Below are positions 25,087 through 35,137 of a stretch of DNA of 64,000 nucleotides, in pieces; within the stretch, counting starts at the first letter, position 1, and each line of letters begins with the position of its first letter. A program made the translations under genes and the position numbers. The notes below the pieces were generated by a model. It searched no databases and was not told where the DNA came from. It saw only the letters and a program-made list of their open reading frames with translations. Source of the DNA: Dictyostelium discoideum (Eukaryota); contig CM000154.2 in the NCBI GenBank assembly GCA_000004695.1, forward strand, positions 4,832,001 through 4,896,000, read 5' to 3'.

Positions 25087-27177
<2,091 letters not shown>

Positions 27178-27469: not shown

Positions 27470-27617
27470 TTATTTATTTTCTTTTCTTTTTACAATAATT
27501 TCAAAACCTCCCTCTTGAATCACAGAAGTGCAAGAATAATCTGCCAATAAAATTGGTATTGTTTTTTTTACATTTGTTCCACTTGAACTTGTTAAACTAA
27601 ATGAAAAATTTAAAACT

Positions 27618-27688
<71 letters not shown>

Positions 27689-28080
27689 TTTATTTTCTTT
27701 TTGTTCTTCTTTTTGTTCTTCTTTTTCCTGTTTTAAGCCATCATCGCTATTATCGCTGTTATCACTATTGTAATTATTATTATTTTTATGAATACCACTA
27801 TTATTGTTGGTGGTGGTGGTGGTGGTGTTATTTATTTCATTATTGTTGTTGTTGTTGACGACATTTTCATTATTAATAGGTGATTTTGGTAATTGATTTC
27901 CAGTAAATATTTTGGATTGTTGCGCTTCATCAGTTTTTGTAGTACTTGAAAAATTAGTGTCAACAATTGGATTGCTATTTTTAAATATATTATTATTATT
28001 AATATTGTTGTTGCTATGGTTACTATGGTTGCTATTATTTACAGTTGTATTTTTATTTCCAATATTATTAATATTATTAA

Positions 28081-28114
<34 letters not shown>

Positions 28115-28870
28115 TAGCGATTTGATTAACGATGGTTTAGTTGGTAAAGTTGGTCGTATTGAATAAGATGAAATACTTGGCTTTATTGCATATGGTTGTT
28201 TTGGAATTTCAGTTATCTTTGGTGAGGCACTGGTTGTAGTTACAGTTGTGGTTATAGGATTATTTGAAGGTATAGGATTTTCAAATTTAATAAAAGAAAG
28301 ACTATTCTTTTTTTCATCTTCATTATGAGTTTTAATTGTTTCGCTTCTTTCTTTTTCTTTGGTGGTGATACTATCATTTTGATCATTATTATTATTATTA
28401 TTACTACCACCACTACTGGCTATAATACTATAGTTTAAACCATCAAAAAAATCCTCATCTAATTGATTGTCATCTTCTATAGTTTTAGTGCCACTGTCAA
28501 TACCACTATTATTATTATTGTTATTATTATTGGTATTGGTAGTAGTAGTTGTGGTAGTAGTTGTAGTGGTTAACTTTTTCGTTTGTTGATCTTCGCTATC
28601 AACTCTTAGTTTTTTATTTTCATCGACGCCTTTGACTTGATGTCCAGCAAAAGTATTACTTTCTAATAAATCATAAATATCGTCAGGGTCACTTTCAAAT
28701 TCATTTAATCTTTTTCTTTTAGAAGTTTGATTATTATTATTATTATTATTATTATCATTATTGTTGTTATTGTCATCACTCTTTTGAACCTCTTCCATTA
28801 AATTTTGAATATTTTCAAAGTCTGACATTTCTTCATCTTGTTGTTTCTCTTGTTGTTGTTTCTCTTTCTC

Positions 28871-28906
<36 letters not shown>

Positions 28907-29836
28907 TAATTTTTGAATAATCTGTTGTTTCTTTACTTGTGATTGATGCTCTTCTCTATACTTTTCATATAGTTGTCTCATTTGAATATTTTCTCCTTCT
29001 TCTTCTTTTTCAAAATTTTTTTGATTCTTTTCTTCTTCTTCCTCTTCTTCATATTCTTGACTACTACCATCATTTGTTGAATCTAACATTGATAAATTTC
29101 CTTCAGTGAGATCTTGTAATGATAATTGTTTAGTTATTTGAGTTGGTAAATTCCATAACTCTAATGAATTTAAAATCTCCAATTGATCACTCGAAATTAA
29201 AGATTCTGAATAAATTATATTATTTCCTATATTATTACTTGCATTTTTATTCATATCTTTTTTTCTATTCAATAATAAAAGGTTAGTATATAGTGATATA
29301 TTAATATATTAATATTAAAATGTTTTAAATTTTCTAAATACATACATTCTTAATAATGATATAACCCTTGGATGTTTTGAAATTGGAGTTGGTGATATTG
29401 GTGAATGTTTATTTTTATTTAAAATGACAAATTTATTAATATTTAACACAAATTTTGAAAAATCTTGATCTGGTTTTATTGTATAATCTAAAATTTCAAT
29501 AACACATCCAAATAAAAAACCAAAATTAAATACATTTTTTTTATTTCTATTATTATAATTTAATTTTTAATAGTTATTATTAATATGATATACATATCAT
29601 TAGATTTGTTTATACTACTAATAATATTAATATTAATAACTTACTCTAAGGCCTCTCTAACTGTATTCTCTGAAACAATGATTTGAATATAACAAATATT
29701 ATCAGATAAATATAATGATATGTTTTTCTTTTTATGTGAATCTTCTGGTAATGAAACAATTTGACCACAAGGATTGAGTGGAAATGAATTTGATAAAATT
29801 GCTTTCTCTAGCCATCCTGGCATAATCTCTTTTTTA

Positions 29837-29910
<74 letters not shown>

Positions 29911-31110
29911 ATTGTTTAATTGAAGACTGTTGATTATCTTTTTTGGAGTTGGTTGTTGTTTTTGTTGCTGCTTCTGTTGTTGTTGTGGCTGTTGTTGTGG
30001 TTGTTGTTGTGGTTGTTGTTGTGGTTGTTGTTGTGGTTGTTGTTGTGGTTGTTGTTGTGGTTGTTGAAGTTGTTGCTTTTGTGGTTTAATTTGTTGTTGT
30101 TGCTGTAATTTATGTTCATGTATTTTTTGTTGTTCGAGTAACTCCTCTTCAAATGCATCAAAGTGTTTTGATTGTTTCTGTTGTTGTTGTTGTTGTTGTT
30201 GTTGTTGGAGTTTCAATTTTTGTGGTGATTTATTATCTTTAATTTTTCGTTGAAATTCGTCAAAGCTTTGTTGTTGTTTTTTAGGTAATTGAGGTTTTTG
30301 TGTTAAAGAATGAGCATGTGTGAATAAATGAATTTGATCCTCCTCTTCTTCATTGTGTTCCTCTATGTCTTCTAATTTATCATCATCATTATTGCTATTA
30401 TTATTATTATTATTATTATTATCTATATCATCATAATTATCATCAACTTCATCAACTACTAATGGTTGGGTTGATTCAAAATCTTCAATTTCATCAATCT
30501 CTTCAATTTCTTTTTTCTTTTTCAATTCTATATCATCAATTTGTTTTTTATTGTGTGGTTGTTGTTGATGTGGCTGTGGTTGTGGTTGAGGTAGTGGTGG
30601 TGGTAGTTGTTTAATAGTGGTATTTGTTGATTTATCAAATGTTAAGAGAGATGCATTATAATTTCTTTGAAGTGATTGTAAAAGAAGTGATAATGAATTA
30701 AAATTTTTAGATAAACCTTTTAAAGGTTGATCATTGTTGATGTGTTTATTGGTAATATTTAAATTATGTGATTTTTCTAATTCTGTATCTAAAAAAAGTG
30801 TAATTTCACCTTCTTTATTACTATTATTAAAATATCCAAATATTATTCTAACTTTTTTTGAAGGGAAATTAATAGTTTCTTTTTGTTTATCTTCTAAATG
30901 AATCATTGGAAGAATGTAATGTTTTGTTGATAATAATAATCTTGTATTTTGTGGAATTTTCAAATCTTTCATTTCACCAATTATAAAAAAAAACACTAAT
31001 TTCGATGATACATTATTTATAGACGATGATGAATCTTCTACTCTATTTATCGATCTTTCATACCACTCATATGACGGAATAATTGATGGTTTAGATTGAT
31101 TATCCATCAT
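27470..31110 (-). CDS. Large Q/N/E-rich protein of unknown function; proposed exons 31110-29645, 29546-29346, 29264-27470 (about 1150 aa)
   Basis: The stop of ORF 29641-31110 overlaps a perfect GA|GTAAGT donor. An acceptor AATAATAG|A at 29547 opens a 201-nt exon (NKKNVFNFGFLFGCVIEILDYTIKPDQDFSKFVLNINKFVILNKNKHSPISPTPISKHPRVISLLR) that is open in only one frame and has no ATG. Its AT|GTATGT donor (29345) and TTGAATAG|A acceptor (29265) lead in phase into ORF 27470-29272, whose listed start is TTG. All three phases close exactly. The product has a (QQQP)n tract and poly-N and poly-T runs. Confidence 0.55.
29987..30068. repeat. 12-bp tandem repeat (ggttgttgttgt)x7 within the CDS, encoding (QQQP)n on the minus strand
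   Basis: Visible tandem array at 29987-30068. Confidence 0.9.
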
Positions 31111-33935: not shown

Positions 33936-34638
33936 TTAATTATTACAAATTGTAATTGAATTTGAGAACCAACCACATTTTGATTCTAATGGGTAAGTGT
34001 GTGACATTGATGGAGTACCGTTACAACCTGGAGAATTAAAGATTTGTTGAGTTAAAGTAGTAGAGTTACAAACAACATTGAATGATAATTGATTATTTGG
34101 GTCTTTAGAATCAACACAAACGTCAACAGTATTGTAGAATACATTACTAATATCATTCTTCCAAGTGGTAGAGTTACATTGACCAGTGTAATCAAATCTA
34201 ACTAAAGCATTAGTTGGAATATCATAAGTGGCAACACATGAAGCAGTCATTGAAATATTATGTCTATCAGTTGCACAAGTATTGGCAGTGAAATTCCAAA
34301 CATTTTGAACTCTTCCTATAAAATCAAATTTAATAAAAATAAAAAATTAATACAAAATTTTAAAAAAATAAATATATTACTATTATATTTAAAATATTAA
34401 TAATAATGATTTTACCTTTGCAATCACCTCTATGATCATATTCAGTTACAAAGATGGTATTACCATCTGGTGAACATGAGAAGGTGGTATCAAAATCACA
34501 AAAGTTTTCTTCAATGAATTGACCATCAGTGACTACATTTGAACTACAATCACCATCGAATCTTTGTACATTAACAAATGAACAATAAGCAAAATTAACA
34601 ATTGTTAATAATAAAATAATTGATAATAATAATTTCAT
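33936..34638 (-). CDS. Small cysteine-rich secreted protein; exons 34638-34416 and 34315-33936 (about 200 aa)
   Basis: Signal peptide MKLLLSIILLLTIVNFAYC. Donor G|GTAAAA (34415) and acceptor TTTTATAG|G (34316) join ORFs 34360-34638 and 33936-34250 in phase (g+ga gives Gly). About 16 Cys and several N-x-S/T sites. No homopolymer low-complexity sequence. Confidence 0.65.
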
Positions 34639-35137
34639 TTTTCTTTTTTTATTTAAAATTAATAATAATAAATAATAATAATAAAAAAAAAAAACTTTTT
34701 TTATACCCTTTTTTTTTTTAAAATATTTAATTTTAATTTTATTTTAATTTTATTTTATTTTATTTTATTTTAGATTTTATTAAAATTTTGTTTAACAAAA
34801 TTTCAAAGATGTACAAAAAAAAAAAAATCTAAAAAAAAAAAAAAAAAGAAAAATTGTACAATTGGTATGAAAGTTTTGGAAATATGTACAATGTATTTAA
34901 GAGTACCAAAAAAAAAAACAATTAAAAAACTTGATCAAAAAAAAGATTAATTAAAAAAAAAAAAAAAAATAGTGAAATTAAAAATATCTGTCAAATTTTT
35001 GGCTTACACAAAATAAAATTTGGAAAATAAAAATAAAAAAAAAAAAAAAAATAAAAAAATATCTTCCATCCTTTACAATTGACAAACACAATTCCTTTTA
35101 TTTATATTATTTATATATTATATTATATTATATTATA

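What the first reader, a model, noticed from the sequence alone, without database searches (positions are those of the whole stretch)
27470..31110. A hidden 201-nt exon links ORFs 29641-31110 and 27470-29272 into one gene of about 1150 aa
The upstream ORF's stop codon is embedded in GA|GTAAGT. The only single-frame-open stretch in the gap begins at a consensus acceptor and ends at AT|GTATGT. The downstream ORF begins (TTG) exactly at the next acceptor. Three independent phase matches (2+1, 2+1) are unlikely by chance. The middle exon, ...FGFLFGCVIEILDYTIKPDQDFSKFVLNINKFVI..., is the only non-low-complexity part and may be the functional core.
Basis: seen in the sequence. Interest (0 to 1): 0.5.

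Follow-up and report, generated by a model that had tools for sequence, protein, structure and literature searches.

The report
Annotated three-exon Dictyostelium gene, TPP1-like fold

Summary
On the minus strand, exons 31110-29645, 29546-29346 (201 nt) and 29264-27470 join through two GT...AG introns (98 and 81 nt, 11-14% GC) into one 1153-aa frame. A compatible middle exon this long arises in 0.02% of shuffled gaps. Exon 2 has coding-type codon usage only in the predicted frame.

It is not hidden. The window is D. discoideum AX4, and a public D. discoideum annotation (GCA_054883475.1) calls a gene from the same ATG with a 1153-residue product.

Exon 2 is also not the only non-repetitive part.

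What I add: residues about 426-561, spanning both junctions, give a sub-threshold but specific Pfam match to the TPP1/ACD shelterin OB fold (E 2.5e-4, 21.4 bits against a 26.5-bit cutoff). The match appears only when exons 1 and 2 are spliced. Ten decoys give nothing comparable. The full-length protein gives no Pfam hit.

The N-terminal 170 aa form a beta-sandwich shared with small stand-alone proteins (DDB_G0287383 family).

A 2019 paper reported finding no shelterin homologues in Dictyostelium. The TPP1 reading is therefore a plausible new annotation, but it lacks structural or experimental proof.

The parts
29645..31110 (-). Exon 1 (CDS from ATG at 31110; 1466 nt). It encodes residues 1-488 plus two bases of codon 489 and ends at GA|GTAAGT.
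   Evidence: The same ATG starts the public gene call in GCA_054883475.1.
29547..29644 (-). Intron 1 (98 nt, GTAAGT...ATAG, 11.2% GC). It contains the in-frame TAA that ends the mechanical upstream ORF.
   Evidence: Codon-usage score is negative in all frames and the longest homopolymer is 5 nt.
29346..29546 (-). Exon 2 (201 nt; residues 490-555 plus the split codons 489 and 556). It encodes the second half of the OB-fold-like domain.
29265..29345 (-). Intron 2 (81 nt, GTATGT...AATAG, 13.6% GC). It has a TACTAAC box whose branch A lies 18 nt from the 3' splice site.
27470..29264 (-). Exon 3 (1795 nt; residues 557-1153 plus the TAA stop at 27472-27470). It is mostly low-complexity N/Q/T/E tracts. 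It carries a KRKR basic cluster (residues 738-741, within window 28706-28723) and a non-repetitive ~49-aa C-terminal tail.
   Evidence: Reading the basic cluster as a nuclear localisation signal is inference only.
30601..31086 (-). N-terminal beta-sandwich domain (residues about 9-170). It is homologous to the stand-alone 162-174-aa DDB_G0287383 family.
29249..29835 (-). TPP1/ACD-like OB-fold region (residues about 426-561). It is encoded by the exon 1 tail, all of exon 2 and the first codons of exon 3, and is interrupted by both introns.
   Evidence: Pfam PF10341: E 2.5e-4, 21.4 bits, profile positions 20-131 or 21-150 of 158, seen only in spliced constructs. Decoys are negative. BLASTP against PDB 2I46: E 3e-4.

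Best explanation
Window 27470-31110 (minus strand) is one ordinary three-exon protein-coding gene of Dictyostelium discoideum. Two short, very AT-rich GT-AG introns are removed, and the 201-nt middle exon joins the two long ORFs into a 1153-aa protein. Public annotation already makes this call.

The protein has four parts:
- an N-terminal beta-sandwich domain shared with a small family restricted to the D. discoideum species group;
- long low-complexity linkers;
- a central OB-fold-like domain (residues about 426-561) that exists only after splicing;
- a long disordered C-terminal half with a KRKR basic cluster and a short non-repetitive tail.

The central domain is most likely a very divergent TPP1/ACD-type OB fold. 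I infer that the protein is the Dictyostelium counterpart of TPP1, Tpz1 and TEBP-beta. On that reading it would partner the POT1-like protein at the G-rich 3' overhang of the telomeres derived from the rDNA palindrome, and would bridge to telomerase or other end-binding factors through its OB surface and C-terminal motifs.

Shown: the gene structure, the dependence of the domain signal on splicing, and the N-terminal domain family. Inferred: the OB three-dimensional fold, membership of the TPP1 family, and any telomere function.

The overall confidence of 0.6 combines about 0.95 for the gene model, about 0.6 for the central domain being a true TPP1-family OB fold, and about 0.45 for a telomere function.
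For: Gene model:
- The exact splice reconstruction gives 1153 aa.
- The public gene call in GCA_054883475.1 starts at the same ATG and has 1153 residues. The exon-skipped model would give 1086 aa and the unspliced ORF 489 aa.
- A compatible middle exon of at least 201 nt arises in 2e-4 of shuffled gaps.
- Exon/intron GC steps and frame-specific codon usage fit the model. The introns lack the 25-29-nt homopolymer runs found in both true intergenic flanks.

Organism: neighbouring ORFs are exact matches to DDB_G0290999, DDB_G0291013 and DDB_G0291019 of AX4.

TPP1-like domain:
- PF10341 is the only Pfam hit. It scores E 2.5e-4 to 3.4e-4 and covers about 110-130 of 158 profile positions.
- The hit is absent for the exon 1 tail alone, exon 2 alone, and exon 1 joined to exon 3.
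- The reversed sequence and 9 shuffled decoys give at best E 0.02, over 32 residues, to unrelated families.
- A targeted BLASTP against the human TPP1 OB fold (PDB 2I46, sequence verified) is collinear across the junction: 25 bits, E 3e-4, 22% identity over 119 residues. 3 of 2000 shuffles reach the Smith-Waterman score.

Context: PMC6759168 describes G-rich telomeric overhangs, measurable telomerase-like activity and a POT1-like protein (DDB_G0286375) in D. discoideum, but no TPP1 candidate. A POT1 partner is therefore expected and currently missing.
Against: - The Pfam score (21.4 bits) is below the curated gathering cutoff (26.5).
- The full-length protein gives no Pfam hit at E <= 1.
- A PDB-wide phmmer search with the domain did not list TPP1 at E <= 10. 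The pairwise BLASTP E-value holds only for a single pre-chosen comparison, and it is not independent of the Pfam hit.
- Most of the pairwise score comes from the exon 1 part (43 of 45).
- The acidic TEL-patch residues of human TPP1 (E168, E169, E171) align with K, K and V.
- No orthologue outside the withheld self cluster was found for the OB region, so there is no conservation or covariation support.
- The structure of the spliced domain could not be predicted here, because the tools refuse spliced sequences.
- No transcript data were available.
- I saw only the start and the product length of the public gene call, not its exon coordinates.
Confidence: 0.6

Rival explanations
1. The gene model is right, but the central domain is not TPP1-related. 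The Pfam hit would then be a chance or composition-driven match, and the protein a lineage-specific, mostly disordered nuclear protein of unknown role whose folded parts (an N-terminal beta-sandwich and a central beta-rich domain) mediate other interactions.
For: The score is below the Pfam gathering cutoff. The full-length protein gives no hit. The PDB-wide phmmer search gives no TPP1 hit. No homologues of the central region turn up among 5.8 billion proteins or in metagenomes. The TEL-patch residues are not conserved. The N-terminal domain family is restricted to the D. discoideum species group, which suggests a young, fast-evolving protein.
Against: HMMER E-values of 2.5e-4 that cover about 70-80% of a profile are seldom spurious. 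Ten composition-matched decoys gave no TPP1 hit and nothing better than E 0.02. The match is collinear with human TPP1 from the N-terminal W-x-x-x-I-L helix to the last strand. It appears only when the two exons are joined in the predicted frame.
Confidence: 0.3
2. Exon 2 is a cassette exon. Some or most transcripts would splice exon 1 directly to exon 3 through a single 380-nt intron, giving an in-frame 1086-aa isoform without the second half of the central domain.
For: Exon 1 joined to exon 3 is in frame with no stop, so skipping would not trigger a frameshift.
Against: The public gene call has 1153 residues, not 1086. Exon 2 has coding-type GC content and codon usage in the correct frame. 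The Pfam domain needs exon 2. Both internal splice sites are strong (GTATGT donor; a TACTAAC box 18 nt from the AG). From general knowledge, a 380-nt intron would be long for Dictyostelium.
Confidence: 0.07
3. There are two separate genes, read without splicing: a 489-aa protein ending at TAA 29641, and an independent 594-aa protein starting at ATG 29254. The 380-nt gap would be intergenic.
For: Both ORFs are open on their own, and the downstream one has an ATG (29254) 10 nt inside exon 3.
Against: The gap contains an 83-codon open stretch (P about 0.01 for 67 codons or more) with coding-type codon usage in exactly the splice-predicted frame. It lacks the 25-29-nt homopolymer runs of the real intergenic flanks. 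Neither the 489-aa nor the 594-aa product is in the protein collection, although the neighbouring genes are. The public call has 1153 residues. A domain match is created only by splicing.
Confidence: 0.03

Closest known systems
Human TPP1/ACD (shelterin subunit; OB fold PDB 2I46; Pfam PF10341)
   Same: The sequence match to the OB-fold profile is collinear and nearly full length. The shared motifs are W-[IL]-x-x-x-I-L, L-x-x-S-D-x-x-x-x-[IV], REAL, F-x-F and F-x-L-x-[IV]-x-x-F-x-[IL]-L. The overall layout is also similar: an OB fold followed by a long disordered region and a short non-repetitive C-terminal tail. The layout comparison rests on general knowledge of TPP1.
   Different: The score is below Pfam's gathering cutoff. 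The OB fold sits centrally (residues about 426-561) behind an extra N-terminal beta-sandwich domain and about 250 aa of low complexity, whereas in TPP1 it is near the N-terminus. The acidic TEL-patch residues E168, E169 and E171 align with K, K and V. No POT1-binding or TIN2-binding motif could be recognised. The protein is more than twice as long.
Fission-yeast Tpz1, ciliate TEBP-beta and p50, budding-yeast Est3 (TPP1-type OB proteins; from general knowledge)
   Same: They are the functional analogy: a divergent OB-fold partner of a POT1-type single-strand telomere binder, or a telomerase accessory subunit. These families are known to be almost unrecognisable to each other by sequence, which fits the weak signal here.
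   Different: No sequence similarity to any of them was detected. Only the PF10341 model matched. Structural comparison was not possible.
DDB_G0287383 family (uncharacterised 162-174-aa proteins of D. discoideum, D. citrinum, D. cf. discoideum and D. dimigraforme)
   Same: About 40% identity to residues 9-170 of this protein, with 24 invariant columns across 9 sequences.
   Different: Those proteins are stand-alone single-domain genes, tandemly duplicated in one genome (L003). Here the domain is fused to a ~980-aa extension that carries the OB-like domain.
VHL beta-domain (PDB 4WQO)
   Different: The score is weak, the model is of medium confidence (pLDDT 72), and Foldseek finds no match at E <= 0.001. 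This is a generic beta-sandwich resemblance and not evidence of relationship.

Membership tests
Spliceosomal GT-AG intron-containing Dictyostelium gene | Introns begin with GT (consensus GTAAGT or GTATGT) and end with AG. | tested here: met
   GTAAGT...ATAG and GTATGT...AATAG.
Spliceosomal GT-AG intron-containing Dictyostelium gene | Introns are short and much more AT-rich than the flanking exons, and their removal restores one open frame. | tested here: met
   98 and 81 nt at 11.2% and 13.6% GC, against 19-27% in the exons. The joined frame is a 1153-aa ORF.
Spliceosomal GT-AG intron-containing Dictyostelium gene | Transcript evidence for the junctions (cDNA or RNA-seq). | not testable with these tools
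   No expression data were available. The indirect support is a public gene call with the same start and 1153 residues.
TPP1/ACD family (Pfam PF10341) | The sequence matches the TPP1 OB-fold profile at or above the curated gathering score (26.5 bits). | tested here: not met
   20.9-21.4 bits, E 2.5e-4 to 3.4e-4, over 112-135 residues of the excised spliced domain. The full-length protein gives no hit. Decoys are negative. The signal is significant but below the cutoff.
TPP1/ACD family (Pfam PF10341) | A five-stranded OB barrel that superposes on the TPP1 OB fold (PDB 2I46). | not testable with these tools
   Structure prediction refuses spliced sequences, and the AlphaFold database library was not available.
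TPP1/ACD family (Pfam PF10341) | A TEL patch on the OB surface (human E168, E169, E171, R180, L183) that recruits telomerase. | tested here: not met
   In the BLASTP alignment these positions are K, K, V, C and E. The alignment is uncertain at 22% identity. From general knowledge, TEL-patch chemistry also differs in non-vertebrate TPP1 analogues.
TPP1/ACD family (Pfam PF10341) | A POT1-binding segment C-terminal to the OB fold, and physical heterodimerisation with a POT1 orthologue. | not testable with these tools
   A POT1-like protein (DDB_G0286375) is proposed in PMC6759168. No interaction prediction or assay was possible.
TPP1/ACD family (Pfam PF10341) | Telomere localisation, or an effect on telomerase or telomere length. 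| not testable with these tools
   This needs experiments.
DDB_G0287383-like N-terminal domain family | Significant sequence similarity over the whole ~160-aa domain. | tested here: met
   phmmer E 1.6e-26 and 1.5e-9. The profile search found 8 members at E 1e-48 to 1e-83, each 37-43% identical to this protein's N-terminal domain.

The most novel reading that the evidence does not exclude
This gene encodes the missing TPP1-type subunit of a Dictyostelium POT1-TPP1-like end-protection and telomerase-recruitment complex. Low-complexity tracts hide it from domain annotation, and an intron splits its OB fold. That would mean amoebozoan telomeres, despite their unusual ends derived from the rDNA palindrome, use the conserved POT1-TPP1 module. 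It would run against the published statement that no shelterin homologues can be found in D. discoideum. The N-terminal beta-sandwich, shared with a family of small proteins specific to the species group, would be a lineage-specific addition to that module.
Probability: 0.45. Interest if true: 0.55.

Novelty: new member of a known kind. Interest (0 to 1): 0.3.

Why it matters
As a gene-structure call it changes nothing. The three-exon model is ordinary and is already in public annotation.

The added value is functional. Telomere maintenance in Dictyostelium is poorly understood. The chromosome ends derive from the rDNA palindrome, the TERT-like protein is atypical, no telomerase RNA is known, and a 2019 study found no shelterin homologues apart from a POT1-like candidate (PMC6759168).

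A credible TPP1 candidate would give a testable entry point in a genetically tractable amoebozoan: knockout, ChIP, and interaction with DDB_G0286375 and TERT. It would also extend the POT1-TPP1 module to another eukaryotic supergroup.

There is a practical lesson too. Whole-protein domain scans of low-complexity-rich Dictyostelium proteins can miss real domains that become visible when the domain is cut out.

Tried and rejected
1. An exact look-up of the merged product, and of each ORF alone, found none of them in the 15-billion-protein collection. The neighbouring genes are present. The target's own cluster, and probably its close orthologues, appear to be withheld, so this absence says nothing about annotation.
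2. Word-seeded homology searches found nothing, with either the central 206 aa or a 469-aa concatenate of all informative segments.
3. A metagenome scan with the OB region gave pattern matches only, none confirmed.
4. A PDB-wide phmmer search with the central region returned only chance-level hits: Nanchung and a RAMP protein at E 0.05-0.13.
The afdb50 fold library was unavailable.
6. A single-sequence AlphaFold model of the N-terminal domain was useless (pLDDT 39). A 9-sequence alignment raised it to pLDDT 72, but the fold searches gave only weak beta-sandwich neighbours. I considered and rejected the idea that the N-terminal domain is a second OB fold.
7. I looked for full-length orthologues next to the N-terminal-domain homologues in D. 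citrinum (L002) and D. cf. discoideum (L003). Those are stand-alone small genes followed by an unrelated Erf4-like gene, not split orthologues.
8. Literature searches for guessed locus IDs (DDB_G0290983 to DDB_G0290991), for DDB_G0287383, and for a Dictyostelium or amoebozoan TPP1 found nothing relevant beyond PMC6759168.
9. I could not obtain the exon coordinates or the end of the public gene call, because no single-exon anchor gene lies within 10 kb.
Full report
**1. What is there**

The window has about 22% GC with poly-N and poly-Q coding tracts. Three neighbouring ORFs are exact matches to D. discoideum AX4 proteins DDB_G0290999, DDB_G0291013 and DDB_G0291019, so the sequence is nuclear DNA of Dictyostelium discoideum.

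On the minus strand the upstream ORF (31110-29641) ends in a TAA that is part of GA|GTAAGT. A 201-nt segment (29546-29346) is preceded by ATAG and followed by GTATGT. The downstream ORF resumes after GAATAG at 29264.

Joining 31110-29645, 29546-29346 and 29264-27470 gives 1466 + 201 + 1795 nt and a 1153-aa product with no internal stop. The introns are 98 and 81 nt at 11.2% and 13.6% GC, against 19-27% in the exons. Intron 2 carries a TACTAAC box with its branch A 18 nt from the AG.

**2. Is it more than chance?**

Yes. I shuffled the 380-nt gap while keeping the outer boundaries.

- Some frame-compatible GT/AG-bounded middle exon of at least 30 nt is common (38% of shuffles).
- One of at least 201 nt occurs in 0.02% of 5000 shuffles. 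With a GTANGT donor, none of that length occurred in 5000.
- I scored codon usage with a model trained on other ORFs of the window against intergenic sequence. Exon 2 is positive only in the splice-predicted frame (+0.21 against -0.73 and -0.65 bits per codon). Both introns are negative in all frames.
- The two true intergenic flanks carry homopolymer runs of 29 and 25 nt. The introns have runs of at most 5 nt.

Exon 1 joined directly to exon 3 is itself in frame (1086 aa). The added information is therefore an open middle exon whose length is a multiple of three, flanked by good splice sites.

**3. Is it hidden?**

No. Around DDB_G0290999 the annotated D. discoideum assembly GCA_054883475.1 has a gene on the same strand with a product of 1153 residues. 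Its first codon is the ATG at window 31110.

That length equals the three-exon model and excludes the 489-aa unspliced model, the 594-aa downstream-only model and the 1086-aa exon-skipped model. I could not retrieve the exon coordinates. The protein and its close relatives appear to be withheld from the searchable collections, and the tools refuse spliced sequences.

**4. What does the protein look like?**

*(a) N-terminal domain, residues about 9-170.* An exhaustive HMMER search found two short homologues. A profile search found eight in all. Every one is an uncharacterised stand-alone protein of 115-174 aa from D. discoideum (DDB_G0287383), D. citrinum, D. cf. discoideum or D. dimigraforme, about 40% identical to this domain.

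*(b) Central domain, residues about 426-561.* When the domain is cut out, the only Pfam hit is PF10341, the TPP1/ACD shelterin OB fold. It scores E 2.5e-4 to 3.4e-4 and 20.9-21.4 bits, covering profile positions 20-131 or 21-150 of 158.

The controls are informative. The exon 1 tail alone, exon 2 alone, and exon 1 joined to exon 3 all give no hit. The reversed sequence and nine shuffles give at best E 0.02, over 32 residues, to unrelated families.

I verified the human TPP1 OB sequence against PDB 2I46. A targeted BLASTP then gave a collinear alignment across the exon 1/exon 2 junction: 25 bits, E 3e-4, 22% identity over 119 residues. 3 of 2000 shuffles reach the Smith-Waterman score.

The weaknesses are real:
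- The score is below Pfam's 26.5-bit cutoff.
- The full-length protein gives no hit at all. This also explains why the public call carries no domain annotation.
- A PDB-wide phmmer search does not rank TPP1.
- Most of the pairwise score lies in the exon 1 part.
- The human TEL-patch acidic residues align with K, K and V.

*(c) The remaining ~600 aa* are mostly low complexity, with a KRKR cluster (residues 738-741) and a non-repetitive ~49-aa C-terminal tail. No family matches them.

**5. Mechanism**

Shown: two GT-AG introns must be removed to create a single reading frame, and the central domain signal exists only in the spliced product. Exon 2 supplies the second half of that domain.

Inferred: the domain is a divergent TPP1-type OB fold, and the protein acts as the partner of the POT1-like protein at Dictyostelium telomeres.

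The inference fits the literature. D. discoideum has G-rich 3' overhangs, a TERT-like protein with measurable activity, and a proposed POT1-like protein (DDB_G0286375). [quoted passage not shown] Reviews that mention Dictyostelium list only TERT and Ctc1.

My estimates are about 0.95 for the gene model, about 0.6 for true TPP1-family homology, and about 0.45 for a telomere function.

**6. Rivals**

- A chance Pfam match in a lineage-specific disordered protein: about 0.3.
- Exon 2 as a cassette exon, since skipping it stays in frame: possible as a minor isoform, about 0.07 as the main form.
- Two independent genes: about 0.03.

**7. Verdict**

The gene structure is ordinary.

The modest interest lies in the unreported, sub-threshold TPP1-like OB fold, which low complexity masks and an intron splits. 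A structure prediction of the spliced domain and a POT1-interaction test would settle it quickly.

Noticed in passing
[not shown]
   Followed up: partly
window 27470-31110 (-), whole product: The full-length 1153-aa protein gives no Pfam hit at E <= 1, but the excised 136-210-aa central segment hits PF10341 at E about 3e-4. The low-complexity tracts suppress the whole-protein score. Other Dictyostelium 'hypothetical proteins' may hide domains in the same way.
   Followed up: yes
window 29645/29264 (-): Skipping exon 2 keeps the reading frame (1086 aa) and would remove the second half of the OB-like domain. An in-frame cassette isoform is therefore possible in principle, but nothing suggests it is used.
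   Followed up: partly
window 29282-29288 (-), intron 2: There is a perfect yeast-type TACTAAC branch-point box, with its branch A 18 nt upstream of the 3' splice site. Intron 1 has only looser YTRAY matches.
   Followed up: no
L001 18421-19111 (window about 33998-34688, -): The public call for the neighbouring 197-aa CfaA_B_C-family gene ends at ...ACAATT, while the open frame continues TGT AAT AAT TAA. The annotated range seems to stop 3 codons before the stop codon, or to use a boundary I could not reconstruct.
   Followed up: no
window 25644-27177 (-): The downstream neighbour is a multi-exon gene. By eye its ORF pieces (…VAIILGYSGTNYAGMQ…, …RCARTDKGVSA…) look like a tRNA pseudouridine synthase of the PUS1/TruA type. 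Its ATG at 27177 leaves a 292-nt 3' intergenic spacer for the gene studied here.
   Followed up: no
L001 against the window: The newer D. discoideum assembly (GCA_054883475.1, CM142511.1) is not strictly collinear base for base with the window over 22.7 kb, presumably through indels in homopolymer or repeat tracts. Gene starts nevertheless map consistently.
   Followed up: no
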